Shown: positions 172 to 50,070, counted from the stretch's first letter. The stretch is DNA of 64,000 nt from an uncultured Gammaproteobacteria bacterium (GCA_964537895.1 CAZIDK010000001.1:51229-115228); one strand, 5' to 3'. Notes: generated by a model not told the origin, from the sequence alone. Numbers and translations: made by a program.

Positions 172-261
172 ATTTTAATGTCCTGCCCGTCTTAATGTGC
201 TCTTTAAAGCGTGAACGAATAGTTCTGAAAAGCTTTAAAGCAAGCCTTGGCGGGTCTATTA

Positions 262-1489: not shown

Positions 1490-1574
1490 ATTATTACTTG
1501 TCCCGCTGGAATCAATCTTGAGGCGTGAACGAAAGTTTCGATAAAGCCGAAAGTTTGATTCCTTGTGGGAAATC

Positions 1575-1600
1575 AAAAAAATGACCCCCTTGGAAGGTCA
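1575..1600 (-). terminator. Intrinsic terminator upstream of tuf (minus-strand orientation)
   Basis: Minus-strand hairpin TGACC-ttccaaggg-GGTCA followed by TTTTTTT. Insulates tuf from upstream transcription. Confidence 0.5.
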
Positions 1601-1627: not shown

Positions 1628-1725
1628 TTCGTCAAGAGTCAAAATACCTTGACTCGAAGACCCGCCAAAATCGCTGCACGAAACGTATTCGAATCGAGTC
1701 TGACTCGACGAATAGAATTGACCTG
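1628..1725. repeat. REP/MITE-like palindromic intergenic repeat, copy A
   Basis: Shares modules (gtcaagagtca, gactcgaagac, cgtattcgaat...gaatagaattg) with copies at 10795-10905, 19262-19430, 22801-22895, 39151-39262 and 40836-41015. Internally palindromic (tcgaatcgagtctgactcgacga). Confidence 0.5.
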
Positions 1726-1796
1726 CCCGCAATGCTTCGCATAGCGAGGCGGGCGGGAAAGGCGAAAAGCAAATTATGTGGGGTCAATAGGGAAAA

Positions 1797-19162: not shown

Positions 19163-19261
19163 CTGATAAATTAATCTTATTTATCTTATAGGATGGCTGG
19201 ATAATGCCAAAAAAATGGCAAAGGTATTTCACCCTTTCCATTTGCTTCCTATAGAGTGCTA

Positions 19262-19430
19262 AGTTTATACCATAGAAATTAAGCCTGTGTCAAGGAGTAA
19301 AATTTACTCCGAAGACCCTGAGTTAAATCGAACGGGTCAAGCCCCAAATTACAAGAGCGCTGACCCTGAGCGTTACAATCCTGAGCGTAGTCGAAGGAAC
19401 GTCGAAGAGGCAAGGAGTAAAATTTATATC
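19262..19430. repeat. REP/MITE-like repeat, copy C, flanked by a 16-bp direct repeat
   Basis: The 16-mer caaggagtaaaattta occurs at 19291-19306 and 19411-19426. The core shares tcgaacgggtcaag, gaccctgagcgttacaatc and gtcgaaggaa modules with copy F. Confidence 0.55.
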
Positions 19431-19864: not shown

Positions 19865-20037
19865 AAATTAAATCATACTTACGCAAACCTTGCAATCCAA
19901 CAAAGAACGTTAAGGTTTTGTGACTGAGTGCGTCAGGGGAATTCCTCAGCTTACTGAAAGTGAGATTGAGGAAGGGGTGAAATTACCCGACAAACGAAGG
20001 AACAAAAATAGTTCGGCTTGGCTTGCAAAAAGTTTTG

Positions 20038-20058
20038 CGCTACTTTCCAAAAAGTAGC
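20038..20058 (-). terminator. Candidate hairpin terminator downstream of the 20102-20407 gene
   Basis: GCTACTTT-ccaa-AAAGTAGC 8-bp stem, then a ttttt-containing tail in minus sense. Confidence 0.35.
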
Positions 20059-20101
20059 AGAGAAAATTAAATCAAATAAAACCAGCTGCTAAGAAATCAA
20101 A

Positions 20102-21944: not shown

Positions 21945-22040
21945 ATATGATATAACGGACGCATTACCGGAGCTGGATACTAAGCTTAGTAAGCTTAAAA
22001 GTCAGCGGGAGAATTTAAATTGGGCTAAGAAGTCAAATTA

Positions 22041-22800: not shown

Positions 22801-22895
22801 GCTAATTATAATCTCTTCGAGCTCCTCGAGTCTGAGCCTCGGCGTCGAAGACCTGAGTCTCAGAGCCGAAGGCCTGAGTGAGTCGAAGGAGAAGT
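22801..22895. repeat. REP/MITE-like repeat, copy D (contains an exact 45-nt duplicate of 40884-40928)
   Basis: 22813-22857 (ctcttcgagctcctcgagtctgagcctcggcgtcgaagacctgag) equals 40884-40928. Followed by imperfect ~13-nt tandem units (ccgaaggcctgag-like). Confidence 0.7.
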
Positions 22896-23173: not shown

Positions 23174-23257
23174 CCGCGGGTTGAGCGGAGCGAAATACTC
23201 CTTACTATGAGTAGAGCGAAATGGTGAGTGCGATTGAACCACTAAGAAGTCAGATTA
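23174..23257. repeat. Direct repeat flanking the toxin-antitoxin cassette, copy 1
   Basis: cgggttgagcgRagcRaaat...ggtgagtg...gaaccactaagaagtcaRatta, shared with 24040-24099 in the same orientation. Confidence 0.7.
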
Positions 23258-23962: not shown

Positions 23963-24045
23963 CTGCTTTCTACAATTTTTATTTCTTCCGGAGTGAGGGC
24001 TGAAAGATTAGTCCAAAAAACCGCAGAGGCTAAGGTTTTCCCGCC
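23959..24045 (-). pseudogene. Remnant 3' end of a DNA methyltransferase-like gene (ends ...LSALTPEEIKIVESS*)
   Basis: The minus-strand frame encodes the TaqI_C-like C-terminal tail (LTxEEIxIVE) seen in N6-adenine methyltransferases / type IIG enzymes, but no long ORF precedes it. The 21-mer ttctacaatttttatttcttc recurs at 26050-26070. Confidence 0.4.
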
Positions 24046-24099
24046 GGGTTGAGCGAAGCAAAATGGTGAGTGAAATCGAACCACTAAGAAGTCAAATTA
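24040..24099. repeat. Direct repeat flanking the toxin-antitoxin cassette, copy 2
   Basis: Matches 23174-23257 and ends with the same gaaccactaagaagtcaaatta motif. Confidence 0.7.
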
Positions 24100-26220: not shown

Positions 26221-26940
26221 TTAAATACTATTGCTGATAATACCACTTTCTTTAAAACTAAAATATTCATCTGAAGTAACTATCAGATGATCAATTATTG
26301 AAATACCTACTAATTTACCTGCTTCTACAAGTCTATTTGTTGTAGATATATCTTCCTCTGATGGTTTGGAATCTCCTGATGGATGATTGTGAGAAATAAT
26401 AATTTGTGCGATATTTTCTTTTATGGCCTTTTTAAAAACTTCTCTGGGATGCACTAAGCTTGCATTTAAGGTACCAATGCTAATTTCTTCGTTTATTAAT
26501 TTATTTCGTGTATCAAAATACAAAATTGTAAAATGTTCTTCTTTTTTACTTCCTATTTTTGTTTGAAGATAGTCAGCAACTAATTTAGAAGAATTTAATA
26601 AAATTTTAGATGATATTTTTTCTTTGGAATATCGCTCAGAAATCGCTTTAAATAAAATTAACCCCAAAGCATTTGAACGACCAATTCCCTTAATTGCAAT
26701 TAATTCTATTATATCTGCATCCAATACTCCTTTGAGATTTTTGAACTTTTTAATAGCCTCTTTGGCTATTTGTTTGCAATCTTTACGCGGAGTACCCAAT
26801 GTCAACAATAATTCAACTATCTCGTAATCCAAAAATCCATTTAAACCAGAATCAATAAATTTTTCTCGGAGTCTTTTTCTATGCCCTTCGGAGTGATTTA
26901 TTTTTTTAATATTTGAATCAGAAATGCTTTTATTTTTCAT
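26221..26940 (-). CDS. RadC-like JAB/JAMM domain protein
   Basis: C-terminal HNHPSGDSKPSEEDISTTNRL matches the RadC JAMM metal-binding motif (HxHP...SxxD). N-terminal RPRERL-like GHRKRLREKF. Start placed at the ATG at 26940, overlapping the upstream gene stop by about 11 nt. Confidence 0.75.
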   Translation of the reverse strand: MKNKSISDSNIKKINHSEGHRKRLREKFIDSGLNGFLDYEIVELLLTLGTPRKDCKQIAKEAIKKFKNLKGVLDADIIELIAIKGIGRSNALGLILFKAISERYSKEKISSKILLNSSKLVADYLQTKIGSKKEEHFTILYFDTRNKLINEEISIGTLNASLVHPREVFKKAIKENIAQIIISHNHPSGDSKPSEEDISTTNRLVEAGKLVGISIIDHLIVTSDEYFSFKESGIISNSI

Positions 26941-28855
26941 TAGTCTCTTTATCGATATTAAATGAAGCTCCATTGGAATCATTATCGTATAAAGTAGAAC
27001 TTATTCTTTGATTACTTAAATGTTTTTCAAAATAACCTTGAGTTTCTGGATCAACTGAGTAAATATAACAACCTTTCATTCCTCTAGTCATGAGTGTTCG
27101 ATATGTGTTTTTAATAATCATATCTGCCATTCTTTTTGACTCTTCTGGATTTTCTTTAAGCCTTTTCTTTATTCCCTTGAATGACTGATCAGAAGATGCT
27201 CGTTTTGTTGCATCAGTAATAATCTTGCCATTTCGAACAACCATATCTGGACCAATTATTACTCCTACATAGTCCAACTCCAGCCCTTGAGAAGTATGTA
27301 TGCAGCCCACCTCACTTACAGAATCAGGATGAATTAACCACGATTGACCATGTAAATATAAATTCCAAGTCGCCTTATAATCATCAATCACGATATCCTT
27401 TAATTTAGCATTTTTCTTGCTTATCCATTTCCAACAATAACCTGCTAACAATCTTGATTTATTATTTTCTTGATTTAGGTCAATTATTTTTTTATGAAGA
27501 ATCGAAGGATTATCCATAACTTTAAAATCATAATTAATATCTTCTAATGATTCATTTGCTGTTTCTCTTATCTGTAATAAATTATCAATCCAGGCTAAGT
27601 AACCATCTGATCCATTACATCTAAACTGCGAAGCTAACTCTAGAGATGTGACTTTTGCTCCCAAGCTTTCTGCCCATTTTATAATTTCTGACTTTTTACC
27701 TATATCTTTCAATGTAACTCTTTGGTTCTCATCGATAAAAAAAACACAAAGCTTGGACACATTTATTAACTCTTTTATTTGATTTTCTCCTAAATGACTA
27801 AACAGTCCTGACTTGGCATTAAGTCTATGCGCCTCATCAACAATAAGTGAATCAAAAGTATTAGCTTCAATATCATAAAATGAACCAGACGAGCTAAATA
27901 AATTTGAGATACGAGTTTTTGTAAATTTACCACTGAGTTTCACTTGGTATACTTCACGAGGTGCTGAATTTTTTGTGACGTATTGCGTAACATTCCCTCT
28001 TTTCGTAAGCTCTGTTAATAAGTTTATTGCAACAATTGATTTACCAGTACCAGGACCTCCTTCGACTATCAGCACATTTTTATTACGCTCAGATGATTCT
28101 TCTGCTAGTTTAAGCGCAGTTTCATATACGATTTTTTGATCATCGATTAGTATGAATTCCTTGTTACCCTCAAGCATTGAAGCAAGACTATCAACTAATG
28201 CCTTTGATGGCCTAATTTTTCCATTTTCAATACTATACAAGATATTTGTTTTATCACCATATTTTACAAATCTTTTTATAAATTCTTGTAATTTTAAGGC
28301 ATCGGTTTTTAGAAAAGCAGGGGCCTTGTCTGTGTATTCCTTATAAAAAACATTGGTAATAATATCGTCTGCCTCGTAATTATGAAGATATGCGCAGGGA
28401 ACTAGAGATATGTTATCTGTTTGAACAGCACTATTAAAATCTTCTAATAATGTTGCATACGACCAGACTTGATATGATGGGTGGGGAACTTCTCCATAAA
28501 AATTTGTATTAAGAACCCCATCTTTTTCAGTCAAACTAACACCTTCACTCCATTGTTTCAACTCGACAATTACGGCTACTTTTCTGTTCTCATTATTTGT
28601 ACCGGTAATTATAAAATCTATACGTTTAGACGTTTGAGGAATTTTATATTCAATTGCAATACCAGCATCATCAGGAATACTCGAATCGTTAATAACATTA
28701 CTCATATAAGGCATGGACTTACGCCATGAGTTAATCTCGCTTTTACCTGTGGCGTGTCCCATCTCGCGTACAAATGAAGTAAGAATTTGTTGTTCTACCT
28801 GTCCAGACAAAACATCACTTAAAAACCCCTTTTTATTAGATGAATAAACGATCAT
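26930..28855 (-). CDS. Fusion protein: N-terminal PD-(D/E)xK nuclease-like domain plus DUF2075-type SF1-helicase-like P-loop ATPase
   Basis: N-terminus RIDFIITG...VAVIVELKQW (D...ELK). Walker A VEGGPGTGKS and Walker B LIVDEAHRL. The C-terminal CIHTSQGLELDYVGVII resembles the helicase 2B motif. 641 aa. Confidence 0.65.
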   Translation of the reverse strand: MIVYSSNKKGFLSDVLSGQVEQQILTSFVREMGHATGKSEINSWRKSMPYMSNVINDSSIPDDAGIAIEYKIPQTSKRIDFIITGTNNENRKVAVIVELKQWSEGVSLTEKDGVLNTNFYGEVPHPSYQVWSYATLLEDFNSAVQTDNISLVPCAYLHNYEADDIITNVFYKEYTDKAPAFLKTDALKLQEFIKRFVKYGDKTNILYSIENGKIRPSKALVDSLASMLEGNKEFILIDDQKIVYETALKLAEESSERNKNVLIVEGGPGTGKSIVAINLLTELTKRGNVTQYVTKNSAPREVYQVKLSGKFTKTRISNLFSSSGSFYDIEANTFDSLIVDEAHRLNAKSGLFSHLGENQIKELINVSKLCVFFIDENQRVTLKDIGKKSEIIKWAESLGAKVTSLELASQFRCNGSDGYLAWIDNLLQIRETANESLEDINYDFKVMDNPSILHKKIIDLNQENNKSRLLAGYCWKWISKKNAKLKDIVIDDYKATWNLYLHGQSWLIHPDSVSEVGCIHTSQGLELDYVGVIIGPDMVVRNGKIITDATKRASSDQSFKGIKKRLKENPEESKRMADMIIKNTYRTLMTRGMKGCYIYSVDPETQGYFEKHLSNQRISSTLYDNDSNGASFNIDKETNEK

Positions 28856-28857
28856 AA

Positions 28858-29205
28858 TTATAATTTGTTATATTTAGTGTGCTTTCCTTTTGCTTTTTTA
28901 ACAGGGTATTTCTTCTTATTTTCCTTCATTTTTTTATCGAAAGCTTTTAGTAAGTCTATGTTTAAATCGTGGCTCATTAACAAAGTCCAATACAAGACAT
29001 CGGAAAGTTCATCAGCAATTTCATTCTTATGTTTTTTAACATATTCATCCATTTCTTCTTTACTTTGCCAAAGAAAATGCTGTAAAACTTCAGAAGCCTC
29101 TAGGGAAAGCGCAATAGAAGAATCTTTTGGATTATGAAACTGCTTCCAATCTCTTGCGTTGCGATATTTAATTATAATATCTATTAAATTTTTGATATCC
29201 GACAT
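28858..29205 (-). CDS. MazG-like all-alpha nucleotide pyrophosphohydrolase
   Basis: RNARDWKQFHNPKD...ALSLEASEVLQHF...EIADELSDVLYW matches the MazG/YpjD NTP-PPase helix pattern. 115 aa; 2-nt gap to the downstream gene. A TAAAAT -10 lies 6 nt upstream of the ATG. Confidence 0.6.
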   Translation of the reverse strand: MSDIKNLIDIIIKYRNARDWKQFHNPKDSSIALSLEASEVLQHFLWQSKEEMDEYVKKHKNEIADELSDVLYWTLLMSHDLNIDLLKAFDKKMKENKKKYPVKKAKGKHTKYNKL

Positions 29206-37878: not shown

Positions 37879-39150
37879 ATGGACGAAAAAAATCTTGCGG
37901 TAAACGCGATAAGGAAAAAATTAATTGGAAAAAGATTAAACTACAAAGAAATTTACGCAATAATGGATCAGATTTCCAAGGAGAAATTTGGAGACGTTTT
38001 AACCACCTATTTTGCCGCATCGGGTTATTCCAAAGGATTTACAAACGAAGAGCTTTTTTTCTTAACCCGCGCCATGGTAAAAACAGGTGAACAGCTTCAT
38101 TTTAAAGGAATTGTTGCGGATAAACATTCTATTGGCGGGGTCCCCGGCACTCGCACTACTCCGATTGTAGTTTCCATTGTTGCCGCCGCAGGATTTAAAA
38201 TTCCCAAAAGTTCATCTCGGGCGATAACAACCCCCGACGGTACGGCGGACGACATGGAAATTTTAGCACCCGTTGATTTAACCAAGGAACAAATTTATAA
38301 AGTCGTTGAGAAAACCAACGGATGTATTGTCTGGGGAGGAAGTTTTAATATCGCTCCGGCAGACGACATATTAATTCAAGTCGAAAGGCCATTGCTTTTT
38401 GAAAGCTACGATAAAATTTTGGTTTCGATTATGGCCAAAAAAGTGGCTTTCGGATCAAACCATGTAGTTATTGATTTACCATATGGTGCAATGGTAAAAG
38501 TACATAGTTTAAAAGACGCGGAAATTTTAAAAGATAAATTTATATTCCTGGCAAAAAAATTCAAAATGAAAATTAAAGTTTTGATACATAAAACCGACGA
38601 GCCTGCGGGAAGAGGAATCGGACCGGTTTTGGAAATGCGGGAATCGCTAAGGGTCCTCCAGCAAAAAAGCGACCGCCCTCTTGATCTTGAAGTAAGAAGT
38701 ATTAACTTGGCCGGAACTCTTTTGGATTTATGCATTAAAGATTCATCTGAAAAATTTAAAACAGACGTAAAGAAAAATTACGGGAACGCCTTTGGCTTTG
38801 CAACGGCACTTTTACAAAGCGGTCAGGCTTTTGAAAAATTTAAAGACATAGTAATAGCCCAAGGCGGAAACTCAAACATAGACAGTGAGAAGTTAAAAAC
38901 CGGTAAATATTCTTATGCTGTAAAAGCCGAAAAAAACGGAGAGATTAAAGGCCTTAACAGTAAAAATATTACTGCTATTGCAAGAATACTCGGAGCTCCA
39001 ATGCAAAAAGGCGCGGGAATATATTTAAATAAAAAACTTCATGATAAAACAAAGAAAAATGAGACTCTATGTACAATTTACAGCGAAAATGTGTATAATC
39101 TAAAGGAAGGTAGGGACTCCTTGGTAAACTTTCCTATCTTTAATTATTAG
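37879..39150 (+). CDS. Thymidine phosphorylase family protein (pyrimidine-nucleoside / AMP phosphorylase-like)
   Basis: DKHSIGGVPGTRTT matches the KHSTGGVGD phosphate-binding signature. 423 aa. Confidence 0.75.
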   Translation: MDEKNLAVNAIRKKLIGKRLNYKEIYAIMDQISKEKFGDVLTTYFAASGYSKGFTNEELFFLTRAMVKTGEQLHFKGIVADKHSIGGVPGTRTTPIVVSIVAAAGFKIPKSSSRAITTPDGTADDMEILAPVDLTKEQIYKVVEKTNGCIVWGGSFNIAPADDILIQVERPLLFESYDKILVSIMAKKVAFGSNHVVIDLPYGAMVKVHSLKDAEILKDKFIFLAKKFKMKIKVLIHKTDEPAGRGIGPVLEMRESLRVLQQKSDRPLDLEVRSINLAGTLLDLCIKDSSEKFKTDVKKNYGNAFGFATALLQSGQAFEKFKDIVIAQGGNSNIDSEKLKTGKYSYAVKAEKNGEIKGLNSKNITAIARILGAPMQKGAGIYLNKKLHDKTKKNETLCTIYSENVYNLKEGRDSLVNFPIFNY

Positions 39151-39262
39151 TATGACCCATTCGGGGCTTCGACTGAGCTCAGCCGAATGTCCAAACTCAG
39201 GCCTTCGGCTCTGAGGCTCAGGCTCGAAGAGATTCTGAGTAAATCGAAGAATGAGGAAATCG
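39151..39262. repeat. REP/MITE-like repeat, copy E (inverted orientation of the ccgaaggcctgag units)
   Basis: Contains ctcaggccttcggctctgag, the reverse complement of the unit in copies D and F, plus the local palindrome gactgagctcagcc. Confidence 0.55.
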
Positions 39263-40835: not shown

Positions 40836-41015
40836 ATGTCAAGCCCCGATTATAATCTGGGCGCAGACCCTGAGTGTTACAATCTCTTCGAGCTCCTCGA
40901 GTCTGAGCCTCGGCGTCGAAGACCTGAGCGGTTCGACTGAGCTCACCGTCGAAGTCCTCAGAGCCGATGGCCTGAGCGAAGTCGAAGGAAAATCGAACGG
41001 GTCAAGAGTCAGATT
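40836..41015. repeat. REP/MITE-like repeat, copy F (longest; bounded by gtcaag motifs)
   Basis: Contains all family modules, including the exact 45-nt match to copy D (40884-40928). Both ends share gggtcaag. Confidence 0.7.
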
Positions 41016-41643
41016 TAATTTCCAGGTTTCTTTTTAAGATTGTTTCCTTACCAAATCTATTTACTACTCTAATTATAATTGTTGTTTTCCCCGGAAAAAC
41101 ATTAATAACTTTTGTAAAAGCTCCGTTGCTATCTACGGAAACGGAAAATTTATCAACAAAAACGGTGGCGTTGGGGTCTGTTTTTCCAATAACGGTAACA
41201 GCATTTGAAGAAATAACTGCATTTTCTGCGGGGGCTGATATATAAACCGAGGGGTTAACTAAAGCTCCCCTATATTGAAACAAAATATACCCTATTAGAG
41301 TTAAGCAAACTAAAAAAACTAAAAATAAAGTTTGTTTTGACTTAAATCTTGATAACGAAAGGTCTTTTGTTTTGGTAAAACCAAGAGGTAAAACTTTTAT
41401 TGCTTTTTCTTGGTCAAATTCTCTTCTGAAAAGCGCCAGGGTTTCCTTCTCGGGCAGATTAAGAAATCTTGCGTAATTCCGAACAAACCCTTGGGCATAA
41501 GTTACAGACGGAAGTTTTTCGTATTCTCCTTTTTCTATTGCCTCAAGAAAAGTAACTTTTATTTTTGTACTTTGGGAAACATTTTCCAAGGTTAAATTTT
41601 TTTGCAAACGTGCTTCCTGAAATTTTTGTCCAACCTTTATCAT
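41002..41643 (-). CDS. RodZ-like cytoskeleton protein (HTH + TM + C-terminal domain)
   Basis: N-terminal XRE-type HTH (LTLENVSQSTKIKVTFLEAIEKGEY), a central TM helix and a C-terminal beta-rich domain. Confidence 0.55.
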   Translation of the reverse strand: MIKVGQKFQEARLQKNLTLENVSQSTKIKVTFLEAIEKGEYEKLPSVTYAQGFVRNYARFLNLPEKETLALFRREFDQEKAIKVLPLGFTKTKDLSLSRFKSKQTLFLVFLVCLTLIGYILFQYRGALVNPSVYISAPAENAVISSNAVTVIGKTDPNATVFVDKFSVSVDSNGAFTKVINVFPGKTTIIIRVVNRFGKETILKRNLEIKSDS

Positions 41644-49739: not shown

Positions 49740-49751
49740 AATATCTAACTT

Positions 49752-49800
49752 GCCCGCCGACTAAGCGCTCCCCGATTCAATCGGGGTAAGCTTTGGCGGG
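49752..49800 (-). promoter_or_regulatory. Structured hairpin between rpsO and pnp (pnp leader / rpsO 3' stem-loop)
   Basis: Nested stems: inner CCCCGAT-tca-ATCGGGG (49770-49786) and outer CCCGCC...GGCGGG. Same position as the RNase III-processed pnp leader hairpin known from E. coli. Confidence 0.5.
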
Positions 49801-50070
49801 TTAGTCTTTAAGTCCAACTTTTTTCGCAATTACGGAGGAACGTGCCTTATCCACTTTTGCCAAAAAATTCATCAGTCTTCTTCTTTTTGCAATCATGGAT
49901 AAAAGTCCGCGGCGGCTATGTGTGTCATGAGCATGCAGTTTAAGATGCTCTGTTAAACGGGTAATTCTGGTAGTTAAAAGCGCAATTTGCACCTCGGGAC
50001 TACCGGTATCACCTTTAACAGTTTGAAATTCTTTTATAATGTCTTGTTTCTGCGAAGTACTAAGCGGCAT
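49801..50070 (-). CDS. rpsO: 30S ribosomal protein S15
   Basis: 89 aa; GDTGSPEVQIALLT...HDTHSRRGLL...RRRL matches S15. Confidence 0.95.
   Translation of the reverse strand: MPLSTSQKQDIIKEFQTVKGDTGSPEVQIALLTTRITRLTEHLKLHAHDTHSRRGLLSMIAKRRRLMNFLAKVDKARSSVIAKKVGLKD

What the first reader, a model, noticed from the sequence alone, without database searches (positions are those of the whole stretch)
1628..1725. Mosaic palindromic intergenic repeat family (REP/MITE-like) with at least six copies, including an exact 45-nt duplicate 18 kb apart
Copies sit at 1628-1725, 10795-10905, 19262-19430, 22801-22895, 39151-39262 and 40836-41015. They are built from shared modules (tcgaacgggtcaag, gaccctgagYgttacaatc, (c)cgaagRcctgag units in both orientations, gtcgaaggaa), are internally palindromic, always intergenic, and sometimes flanked by short direct repeats (16 bp around copy C; gtcaag at both ends of copy F). 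Positions 22813-22857 and 40884-40928 are identical over 45 nt. I do not recognise the family.
Basis: seen in the sequence. Interest (0 to 1): 0.55.

Follow-up and report, generated by a model that had tools for sequence, protein, structure and literature searches.

The report
Mobile hairpin repeats in a Levybacterium
The six sites are real copies of small hairpin-forming repeat elements in an uncultured Levybacteria (candidate phyla radiation) genome. They belong to an apparently undescribed family that sits beside promoters and at the ends of essential genes, so this is a moderately novel kind of mobile or regulatory DNA and not an artefact.

Summary
C, D, E and F share GC-rich CTGAG/TCGAAG mini-hairpin modules; D and F are identical over 48 nt. 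A and B match only each other by BLAST. A, C (twice) and F share a frame: GTCAAG, a variable hairpin (P0), CGAAG or CGCA, then GACCC…GGGTC, then AAG. This occurs 4 times against 0.15 expected.

The frame holds two interiors. Type I (B; A is a degenerate copy) is a ~70-nt hairpin with an invariant apex. It is found in at least 120 metagenome stretches, has strong covariation and has no Rfam match. Three more copies in the window were missed (180-259, 1495-1572, 49748-49805). Type II (C-F) is restricted to this lineage but is built around a 19-mer found across contigs of 24-72% GC.

The "gtcaag" ends at A, B and C are the -35 boxes of minus-strand promoters. Copies carry flanking duplications of 6 nt, 16 nt and, at gene ends, 12-39 nt. 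At gene ends such as S7 at copy B, the working terminal codons and a displaced second copy differ almost only synonymously.

Best reading: non-autonomous mobile hairpin elements, REP/BIME/MITE-like, with an unknown mobilising enzyme. I rate it a new variant of a known kind.

The parts
1631..1757 (+). Copy A. GTCAAG at 1631-1636 is the rc of the -35 box of the tuf promoter. The P0 hairpin is at 1637-1654, followed by CGAAG. A degenerate type-I hairpin spans 1654-1749, with a nested 13-nt hairpin insert at 1695-1707. Its 3' half is replaced by a GC hairpin at 1722-1757.
   Evidence: Frame match. R1 scores only 10.4 bits, E=0.65. nhmmer matches model positions 13-71, E=6e-5. Promoter TTGACG-17-TATATT at 1635->1607 on the minus strand. 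Coordinates.
1495..1572 (+). Previously unreported divergent type-I hairpin. It lies inside the tuf 5' UTR, antisense to tuf, whose true start is at 1489.
   Evidence: R1 18.6 bits, E about 1e-3. The EF-Tu N-terminus [13 protein letters not shown] places the start at 1489.
180..259 (+). Previously unreported type-I hairpin with compensatory changes in the apex. It lies between the tuf terminator (263-284) and the start of the next minus-strand gene, which looks like S10.
   Evidence: R1 52.3 bits, E=2e-15. Sequence. The S10 assignment is by eye from the N-terminal translation MPKGRIRVR and was not tested.
10826..10905 (-). Copy B core: a full type-I hairpin, with P1 arms GTCCCTC (10894-10900) and GTGGGAC (10830-10836).
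   Evidence: R1 90.9 bits. It aligns with L093, L141 and L076.
10906..10941 (-). Copy B c1. The last ten S7 codons plus the stop (10912-10941, NRAFSHFRF*) are followed by the 6-nt 'guide' AGCTCT (10906-10911). The guide pairs with AGAGCT (10933-10938) to form stem P0 around the stop codon.
10799..10828 (-). Copy B c2: a displaced second copy of the same ten S7 codons plus stop. It differs from c1 at 9 of 30 nt, and every difference is synonymous.
10762..10790 (-). Promoter TTGACA-17-TACAAT. Its -35 box is the 'gtcaag' at the left end of copy B.
19289..19426 (+). Copy C.
- GTCAAG (19289-19294) is the rc of the conserved rpoB -35 box.
- The 16-nt direct repeat is at 19291-19306 and 19411-19426.
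- P0 is at 19294-19310.
- Unit 1 is a mini frame, GAAGACCC...GGGTCAAG, at 19311-19341.
- Unit 2 (19336-19410) is a second frame holding a type-II interior. That interior contains CCTGAGCGTAGTCGAAGGA at 19380-19398.
22806..22895 (+). Copy D: a type-II interior without the frame. It is colinear with F, and 22810-22857 is identical to 40881-40928. It holds the mini-hairpin module CTCAGAGCCGAAGGCCTGAG at 22859-22878.
   Evidence: A short-read contig of the same strain ends at 22839.
39151..39262 (+). Copy E: type-II modules, mostly in inverted orientation. There is a hairpin at 39158-39189 and a 20-nt module at 39196-39215 on the minus strand. E starts right after the stop codon of gene 37879-39150.
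   Evidence: An E-like module occurs in metagenome locus L221.
40838..41006 (+). Copy F: a complete frame holding a type-II interior.
- GTCAAG is at 40838-40843 and P0 at 40844-40861, followed by CGCA.
- GACCC is at 40866-40870 and GGGTC at 40999-41003.
- The closing GTCAAG at 41001-41006 contains the stop codon of gene 41002-41643.
   Evidence: A short-read contig ends at about 40900.
49748..49805 (+). Previously unreported 'mini' type-I hairpin. The basal stems are kept and the 29-nt apex is replaced by 7 nt. It lies in the rpsO-pnp intergenic region.
   Evidence: R1 27.8 bits, E=6e-7. Pfam hits to S15 and PNPase.

Best explanation
The sites are copies of a superfamily of small, non-coding, hairpin-forming mobile elements in a Candidatus Levyibacteriota (Patescibacteria/CPR) genome.

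Shown:
- Shared frame: GTCAAG, a variable hairpin P0, CGAAG/CGCA, then GACCC…interior…GGGTC, then AAG. It carries either a ~70-nt hairpin with an invariant apex (type I) or a mosaic of 14-23-nt CTGAG/TCGAAG mini-hairpins (type II).
- Distribution: the elements are sporadic among related genomes.
- Location: they lie directly upstream of TTGAC -35 boxes, or at the 3' ends of conserved genes. These genes are S7, S9, L7/L12, GyrB, EF-Tu and SecA.
- Duplications: they carry flanking duplications. At gene ends, the functional terminal codons (c1) and the displaced copy (c2) differ almost only at synonymous sites.

Inferred:
- Copies are mobilised in trans by an enzyme encoded elsewhere. A single-strand hairpin-recognising HUH-type or tyrosine recombinase is the leading guess. 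The guess rests on the conserved apex and the flanking (G/C)AAG and GAAC tetranucleotides.
- Insertion at GTCAAG regenerates the -35 box, so the promoter survives.
- At gene ends, the element arrives by recombination from a related lineage together with that lineage's version of the last codons, and the resident end is pushed downstream.
- Once resident, the hairpins probably also act as RNA or DNA structures at operon junctions.
For: Repeats are real:
- D and F are identical over 48 nt.
- D and E share an inverted 28-nt module at 96%.
- The frame occurs 4 times in the window against 0.15 expected. It recurs around type-I hairpins, and around one type-II-like interior (L208), in other contigs.

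Type I is a structured family:
- There are at least 120 metagenome stretches and 110 covariance-model hits.
- 97.8% of cells are paired against 79.1% in shuffles. 13 of 14 pairs show compensatory changes, with 0 of 500 shuffles as high, and the signal collapses when partners are slid.

Mobility:
- Only 4 hits occur in 1.5 Mb of 80 orthologous Levybacteria loci, against 5 copies in this 64-kb window.
- The rpoB promoter and leader are conserved in 7 relatives, but conservation stops exactly at the -35 box, where the C insert begins. The insert is flanked by an exact 16-nt repeat.
- The window's S7-end hairpin is 94% identical to that of L170, while the adjacent S7 coding sequence is about 65% identical.
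- GTCAAG is enriched at both junctions: 9 and 11 of 68, against about 1 expected within 70 nt upstream.
- Tandem and inverted pairs occur.

Gene-end duplications:
- In 12 loci there are 55 synonymous against 4 nonsynonymous codon differences, and 54 of 70 differences are at third positions.
- Some c2 copies are frameshifted, which marks them as relics.

P0 stem: a stem of at least 6 bp is present in 54% of copies, against 10% in shuffles.

Context: Patescibacteria are reported to be naturally competent, and ribosomal-protein genes and tuf dominate their horizontally acquired translation genes (PMC12455944).
Against: - No transposase, integrase or HUH gene was found among about 55 window ORFs. 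None was found within 2.5 kb of 67 elements, or between paired copies.
- The duplications range from 6 to 39 nt, which fits no single known transposition chemistry.
- Import of c1 explains synonymous-only divergence. It does not explain why both copies share lineage-specific residues, RF in the window against KW in L170 and L093.
- The invariant apex across divergent hosts would fit a host-selected RNA function equally well.
- Genome-wide copy number is unknown.
- No truly empty orthologous site at base-pair resolution was recovered for D, E or F.
Confidence: 0.6

Rival explanations
1. The type-I hairpin is primarily a host cis-acting RNA. It would be a processing, stability or termination element at junctions of translation-gene operons, comparable to RNase III hairpins such as the E. 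coli rpsO-pnp one. It would be maintained by selection and would not be mobile. The type-II clusters would be unrelated GC-rich terminator-like hairpins.
For: - Covariation is strong and the apex is invariant.
- Copies sit after S7, S9, L7/L12 and EF-Tu, before S10, and between rpsO and pnp.
- The P0 stem encloses the stop codon.
- G:T pairs outnumber A:C pairs 21 to 11 on the modelled strand.
Against: - Orientation relative to the flanking genes is mixed: 11 sense/sense against 18 antisense/antisense.
- The element is absent from the same junctions in most relatives, with 4 hits in 80 loci.
- It is flanked by duplications, and it occurs as tandem and inverted pairs.
- The hairpin is far more conserved than the neighbouring ribosomal-protein gene.
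- No Rfam family matches.
Confidence: 0.2
2. The gene-end copies, B among them, are scars of integrase-type integrative elements. These elements target the 3' ends of conserved genes and carry a replacement end, giving attL and attR. The hairpin would be what remains of the element or of its attP.
For: - The architecture is a functional foreign-looking end, then an insert, then the displaced native end.
- In five of 56 Levybacteria loci with a detectable S7 end, that end is duplicated around an insert. Three of these hold 0.5-1-kb gene cassettes: an AbiEii toxin module in L117, a Trp-repressor-like gene in L077, and an uncharacterised insert in L084. The other two hold the type-I hairpin.
- c2 keeps native-like C-ending codons: GC3 is 0.56-1.0 for c2, 0.22-0.44 for c1, and averages 0.55 in native ends.
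Against: - No integrase lies in or near any cassette or hairpin.
- The same hairpin occurs at many different genes and at non-coding GTCAAG sites, which one att specificity cannot explain.
- No identical core sequence is shared by c1 and c2.
Confidence: 0.12
3. The similarities are chance or compositional: GC-rich low-complexity patches in an AT-rich genome.
For: - The modules are short.
- Folding z-scores of whole copies are only -1.5 to -2.5.
- BLAST of copy F against plasmids gives only chance-level hits.
Against: - There is a 48-nt exact identity.
- The frame is enriched more than 25-fold.
- The cross-phylum 19-mer gives 71 hits against 3 for the reversed control.
- Covariation statistics are strong.
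- Short-read contigs break inside D and F.
Confidence: 0.02

Closest known systems
REP / BIME elements and REPINs of proteobacteria, mobilised by RAYT transposases
   Same: They are non-coding, GC-rich, hairpin-forming and multi-copy, and lie at gene ends and operon junctions. They form mosaics with modules in both orientations, including inverted pairs such as the one in L247. The presumed mobilisation in trans by a single-copy enzyme is also the same.
   Different: - The type-I hairpin is about 70 nt, with a sequence-invariant apex shared across divergent hosts. REPs are 20-40 nt and species-specific.
- There is no consistent GTAG or CGTC tag.
- These elements have flanking duplications of 6-39 nt. 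As I recall, REPINs make none.
- No RAYT was found.
- Copy number is unknown.
Correia/NEMIS elements of Neisseria and enterobacterial ERIC/RU MITEs
   Same: They are small non-autonomous repeats that fold into long hairpins and sit next to or inside transcription units. As I recall, they can contribute or abut promoter hexamers and serve as RNase III substrates. They also have target duplications.
   Different: Correia elements have defined terminal inverted repeats and a fixed TA duplication. Here the boundary is GTCAAG, the duplication length is variable, and the interior is modular and replaceable.
Mobile ORFs in fungal mitochondrial and phage genomes that insert at the 3' end of a conserved gene, bring a foreign copy of the terminal codons and leave the resident end as a downstream pseudogene (for example Allomyces atp6). 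This comparison is from my own knowledge.
   Same: The architecture matches: a functional imported end, then an insert, then the displaced native end. The two ends diverge almost only synonymously.
   Different: Those inserts encode a homing endonuclease. Here the insert is a 70-nt non-coding hairpin or a small cassette with no nuclease, and the host is a CPR bacterium.
Integron attC sites and IS200/IS605 end hairpins, which are single-strand recombination substrates
   Same: A conserved structure with covarying stems lies directly after gene ends. Short conserved flanking nucleotides and a 'guide'-like stretch 5' of the hairpin foot pair with upstream sequence.
   Different: There is no GTTRRRY/RYYYAAC core and no integrase or TnpA nearby. 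IS200/IS605 elements make no target duplication. The P0 pairing here is 6-13 bp rather than 4 nt.

Membership tests
REP/BIME (RAYT-associated) | Short (20-40 nt) imperfect palindromes | tested here: inconclusive
   Type-II modules are 14-23-nt mini-hairpins (family D3). The type-I hairpin is about 70 nt.
REP/BIME (RAYT-associated) | Conserved GTAG or CGTC tetranucleotide at one end of each palindrome (PMC3733652) | tested here: inconclusive
   CGTCGAAG occurs in some type-II modules (22843, 40914, 19400 by eye), but GCCGAAG and GTCGAAG occur in others. Type I is flanked by (C/G)AAG instead. No string match was found in the paper.
REP/BIME (RAYT-associated) | A cognate RAYT (Y1 HUH transposase) gene in the genome | not testable with these tools
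   None was found among about 55 window ORFs or near 67 elements. The rest of the source genome was not available.
REP/BIME (RAYT-associated) | High copy number (tens to hundreds per genome) | not testable with these tools
   There are nine copies in 64 kb. Short-read contigs break inside D, E and F, but the E break may be caused by its palindrome.
MITE | Terminal inverted repeats | tested here: inconclusive
   Only GACCC/GGGTC (5 bp) plus the internal hairpin were found. No IS-like terminal inverted repeats are present.
MITE | Fixed-length target-site duplication | tested here: not met
   Duplications are 6 nt (GTCAAG at F), 16 nt (C) and 12-39 nt at gene ends.
MITE | A related autonomous IS with a transposase | tested here: not met
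   No transposase was found in the window, beside elements or between paired copies.
Any curated RNA family (Rfam 15) | A covariance-model match | tested here: not met
   No match at gathering score over the whole window. Only chance-level hits at E<=10 around B, F and L242.
Structured cis-regulatory RNA | Covariation supporting a conserved secondary structure | tested here: met
   13 of 14 pairs are compensatory, and the covariation score is 0.529 against 0.171 in shuffles, with 0 of 500 as high. The alignment was fitted to the model, which favours the structure somewhat. An independent MAFFT/alifold run gives 9 of 14.
Structured cis-regulatory RNA | Consistent strand and position relative to the regulated genes | tested here: not met
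   The element occurs in both orientations relative to flanking genes: (+,+) 11 and (-,-) 18.
Integrase-type integrative element (attL/attR at a gene 3' end) | A displaced native 3' end downstream of an element-borne replacement | tested here: met
   c1/c2 pairs at S7, S9, L7/L12, GyrB and others.
Integrase-type integrative element (attL/attR at a gene 3' end) | An integrase gene and an identical core shared by the two att sites | tested here: not met
   No integrase was found. c1 and c2 share no conserved identical core.

The most novel reading that the evidence does not exclude
The type-I hairpin, with its P0 'guide', is the cis-acting part of a previously unknown homing system in CPR bacteria. 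In this reading a non-coding hairpin element is targeted to the last codons of essential genes or to -35 boxes, possibly through guide-target pairing. It carries its own synonymously recoded replacement for the displaced codons, so it can spread between species through conserved genes without harming the host. The displaced native end would be retained as the downstream homology arm.
Probability: 0.15. Interest if true: 0.85.

Novelty: new variant of a known kind. Interest (0 to 1): 0.6.

Why it matters
Small palindromic repeats are well studied in proteobacteria, but I found no description of them in the candidate phyla radiation. Those genomes are tiny and are thought to carry little repetitive DNA.

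Here a hairpin with a sequence-invariant apex is shared by many uncultured genomes. It sits at the ends of S7, S9, L7/L12, EF-Tu and GyrB, and beside the tuf and rpoB promoters. It is accompanied by recoded duplicates of the gene ends.

If the element is mobile, it marks a route by which foreign DNA enters the most conserved operons of these organisms. That would fit reports that ribosomal-protein genes and tuf are frequently exchanged in Patescibacteria (PMC12455944).

If it is instead a host RNA, it is a new, widespread structured motif at operon junctions.

Either way, it can truncate or extend predicted ORFs and breaks short-read assemblies of these genomes. The unexplained 19-mer shared by contigs of 24-72% GC deserves its own study.

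Tried and rejected
- **Rfam.** I ran it at gathering score on the whole window and at E<=10 around B, F and a consensus-like copy. Nothing was found beyond one tRNA.
- **BLAST against plasmids.** Copy F gave only chance-level hits in high-GC coding DNA.
- **Literature string searches.** I searched for the DNA motifs and for the peptides they would encode, and found nothing relevant. The REP survey papers do not list these sequences.
- **Exact-protein look-ups.** These returned only short-read contigs of the same strain, identical to the window. They gave no presence/absence polymorphism.
- **Search for a partner gene.** ORFs within 2.5 kb of 67 elements cluster only into housekeeping families. 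ORFs between paired copies and inside S7-end cassettes are a methyltransferase, a CBS protein, an AbiEii toxin and a Trp-repressor-like protein.
- **Simple target duplication followed by neutral decay of c2.** I rejected this because of the 55:4 synonymous-to-nonsynonymous ratio.
- **Hammerhead or group II domain V resemblance of the apex.** I considered this by eye and dropped it because there is no Rfam support.
- **Strand assignment from wobble pairs.** My first count (72 G:T against 18 A:C) was biased by the stem-finding rule. An unbiased count gives only 21 against 11, so the folding strand is not settled.
- **The contig break inside E as evidence for further copies.** I weakened this reading because the break coincides with the end of a palindrome.

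Full report
**Source and setting**

The window is AT-rich, about 37% GC. It carries the rpoB-rpoC-rpsL-rpsG-fusA…tuf region on the minus strand. rpoB is at most 81% identical to the best of 80 genomes retrieved, which are mostly labelled Candidatus Levyibacteriota or Patescibacteria. Short-read contigs from runs SRR13723393, SRR13723396 and SRR13723397 are identical to the window.

**Checking the observation**

All six sites look as described.
- D and F match over 52 nt with one mismatch, and exactly over 48 nt.
- D and E share a 28-nt module in inverted orientation at 96%.
- C and F share three blocks of 17-27 nt.
- The 16-nt repeat around C is exact.
- Clusters of at least five CTGAG/CTCAG/TCGAAG/CTTCGA words per 100 nt occur only at C, D, E and F. 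There are none in 1.5 Mb of related Levybacteria DNA, and only two in 475 kb of other CPR-like contigs. One of those resembles E closely.

A and B match only each other by BLAST, over 39-42 nt at 81-82% in inverted orientation.

Short-read contigs of the same strain end inside D, E and F. That is expected at repeats. The break in E coincides with the end of a palindrome, so it need not mean that further copies exist.

**What ties the copies together**

Reading the junctions shows a shared frame: GTCAAG, a variable hairpin (P0), CGAAG or CGCA, then GACCC … GGGTC, then AAG. The pattern GTCAAG-N14-30-GACCC occurs four times in the window, at A, twice in C, and at F. All four are on the plus strand, against 0.15 expected. 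The same frame surrounds elements in other contigs.

After GACCC, copy A continues with the sequence it shares with B. C and F continue with TGAG(Y)GTTACAATC and the CTGAG/TCGAAG modules. So one frame carries two interiors. D is colinear with the interior of F but lacks the frame. E is made of the same modules, mostly inverted. B itself does not carry the GTCAAG-…-GACCC frame. It is tied to the family through A and through its type-I hairpin.

**Type I (B and A)**

The core of B aligns with elements in relatives. L093 and L141 have it at the same place, after rpsG. L076 has it upstream of rpoB, inverted.

The sequences show an invariant apex, GAGCCGTRTTCGAATAGAAYTGAAAAGGCGA, inside stems that vary and covary.

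On 100 distinct sequences aligned to covariance model R1:
- 97.8% of cells are paired, against 79.1% in shuffles.
- 13 of 14 pairs have compensatory changes.
- The score collapses when partners are slid. This alignment was fitted to the model. An independent MAFFT/alifold run gives 9 of 14 pairs.

No Rfam family matches.

In the window, R1 scores B at 90.9 bits and A at only 10.4 bits. A is degenerate: it has a nested 13-nt hairpin insert, and its 3' half is replaced by a GC hairpin.
- 180-259 (52.3 bits), between the tuf terminator and the next gene.
- 1495-1572 (18.6 bits), inside the tuf 5' UTR.
- 49748-49805 (27.8 bits), a 'mini' copy between rpsO and pnp.

**Evidence for mobility**

- R1 finds only four hits in the 1.5 Mb around rpoB of 80 Levybacteria, against five in this 64-kb window.
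- The rpoB promoter and leader are conserved in seven relatives (cTTGACA, spacer, TATAAA, then a hairpin with a T-run). Conservation stops exactly at the -35 box, where the insert at C begins.
- The S7-end hairpins of the window and L170 are 94% identical, while the adjacent S7 coding sequences are about 65% identical.
- Some contigs hold tandem or inverted pairs.
- Orientation relative to flanking genes is mixed.
- No transposase or integrase was found in the window, near 67 elements or between paired copies.

**The 'gtcaag' ends**

At A, B and C this hexamer is the reverse complement of a -35 box:
- TTGACG-17-TATATT for tuf.
- TTGACA-17-TACAAT for the gene starting at 10771.
- The conserved TTGACA of rpoB.

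Across 68 type-I copies, GTCAAG lies within 75 nt upstream in 9 and at the 3' junction in 11, against about 1 expected within 70 nt upstream. I infer that GTCAAG is the preferred insertion site. Its duplication would leave one intact -35 box next to the -10 box, so the promoter survives.

**Gene-end copies**

At B the S7 reading frame ends with NRAFSHFRF* (c1, 10912-10941). Six nucleotides after the stop pair with the first nucleotides of c1, forming stem P0. The hairpin follows, and then a second NRAFSHFRF* (c2, 10799-10828). The two copies differ at 9 of 30 nt, all synonymous.

The same architecture recurs at S7 (L093, L141, L166, L170), S9, L7/L12, GyrB and two other genes. Over 12 loci:
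- Codon differences are 55 synonymous against 4 nonsynonymous.
- 54 of 70 nucleotide differences are at third positions.
- One c2 is frameshifted, so c2 can decay.

A stem P0 of at least 6 bp is present in 54% of copies, against 10% in shuffles.

Simple duplication followed by neutral decay of c2 cannot produce this pattern. The most economical reading is that c1 came in with the element from a related lineage, and that c2 is the resident end. Three observations support this:
- c2 keeps C-ending codons typical of native S7 ends, and c1 does not.
- c1 of the window and c1 of L170 share their first 21 nt despite divergent S7 bodies.
- The S7 end is a general insertion hot spot. Three other genomes carry 0.5-1-kb inserts there between two synonymous copies of the S7 end. 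One encodes an AbiEii toxin module and one a Trp-repressor-like gene.

It remains unexplained why both copies share lineage-specific residues, RF against KW.

**Type II and the cross-phylum motif**

C, D and F each contain CCTGAG-YG(N)-AGTCGAAGGA. This pattern occurs in 71 stretches of a viral-contig collection whose GC ranges from 24 to 72%. It usually appears as (gt)catCCTGAGCGNAGTCGAAGGAt, and sometimes has an inverted partner. The reversed control pattern gives 3 hits. Single copies occur in Levybacteria, including one directly after an S7 stop codon. I could find no description of this motif. From memory, it corresponds to repeats that yield spurious peptides of the LSEVEG/PELVEG/FDKLR type in many phyla. 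That recollection is a lead, not a test.

**Verdict**

The finding is real. It is best described as a family of non-autonomous hairpin elements resembling REP/BIME and MITEs. It fails or cannot be tested on their defining features. It also has unusual properties:
- A replaceable interior inside a fixed frame.
- A structured core conserved across hosts.
- Insertion at -35 boxes.
- Recoded duplicates of the ends of essential genes.

The mobilising enzyme and any host function are unknown. The HUH-type guess rests only on the hairpin and the flanking (G/C)AAG and GAAC tetranucleotides.

Noticed in passing
window 9806-9907 (-): A tRNA with anticodon CAU carries a hairpin of about 30 nt in the variable region. 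Rfam tRNA scores it at 51.3 bits and ARAGORN finds nothing. It overlaps the 3' end of a 292-aa ORF (9893-10771) that has no Pfam match.
   Followed up: partly
window 23175-23257 and 24040-24099: Direct repeats of about 60-80 nt (84% over 50 nt) flank a DUF433-like/DUF5615 (PIN-like) gene pair, which looks like a small mobile toxin-antitoxin cassette. The repeats end in 'ccactaagaagtcaRatta'. The same 'aagaagtcaaatta' tail follows copy D (22890) and occurs at 22028 and 21897.
   Followed up: no
L077:10014-10697, L084:18110-18626, L117:18195-19171: The 3' end of rpsG (S7) is an insertion hot spot in Levybacteria. Inserts of 0.5-1 kb sit between two synonymous copies of the last ten S7 codons. 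L077 holds a Trp-repressor-like gene flanked by a 25-nt inverted repeat, and L117 holds an AbiEii toxin module. No integrase is present.
   Followed up: partly
window 19180-19260 (-), and L075-L086 just upstream of rpoB: The rpoB leader contains a hairpin followed by a T-run (AAATGGAAARGGTGAAA.ACCTTTGCCATTTTTTT) that is conserved in eight Levybacteria. It looks like a transcription attenuator upstream of rpoB.
   Followed up: no
window 1582-1600 (-): A terminator-like hairpin with a T-run lies immediately after the predicted tuf transcription start, inside the 5' UTR. That UTR also holds an antisense type-I hairpin.
   Followed up: no
L004-L074 (viral contigs), e.g. L014:2447-2465, L044:2180-2198: The 19-mer CCTGAGCGNAGTCGAAGGA is identical in contigs of 24-72% GC. 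In some it lies in frame inside what looks like a signal peptide (…ALSFVILSGVEGQAQG…). In high-GC contigs it forms long hairpins closed by CCGTTCG/CGAACGG.
   Followed up: partly
window 1722-1757 and L281 (element found): A nested GC-rich hairpin, CCTGCCCGC…GCGGGCGGG, interrupts the type-I hairpin both in copy A and in an unrelated metagenome copy. This suggests a second small insert type that targets these hairpins.
   Followed up: no
window 19890-20060: This non-coding stretch between a GNAT gene and a small ORF has unknown content. Three independent short-read contigs of the strain end inside it, at 20033.
   Followed up: no
window 26930-29205 (-): A Schlafen-group-3-like helicase (641 aa) lies next to a MazG-like pyrophosphohydrolase and a RadC-like protein. 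This may be a defence-related cluster.
   Followed up: no
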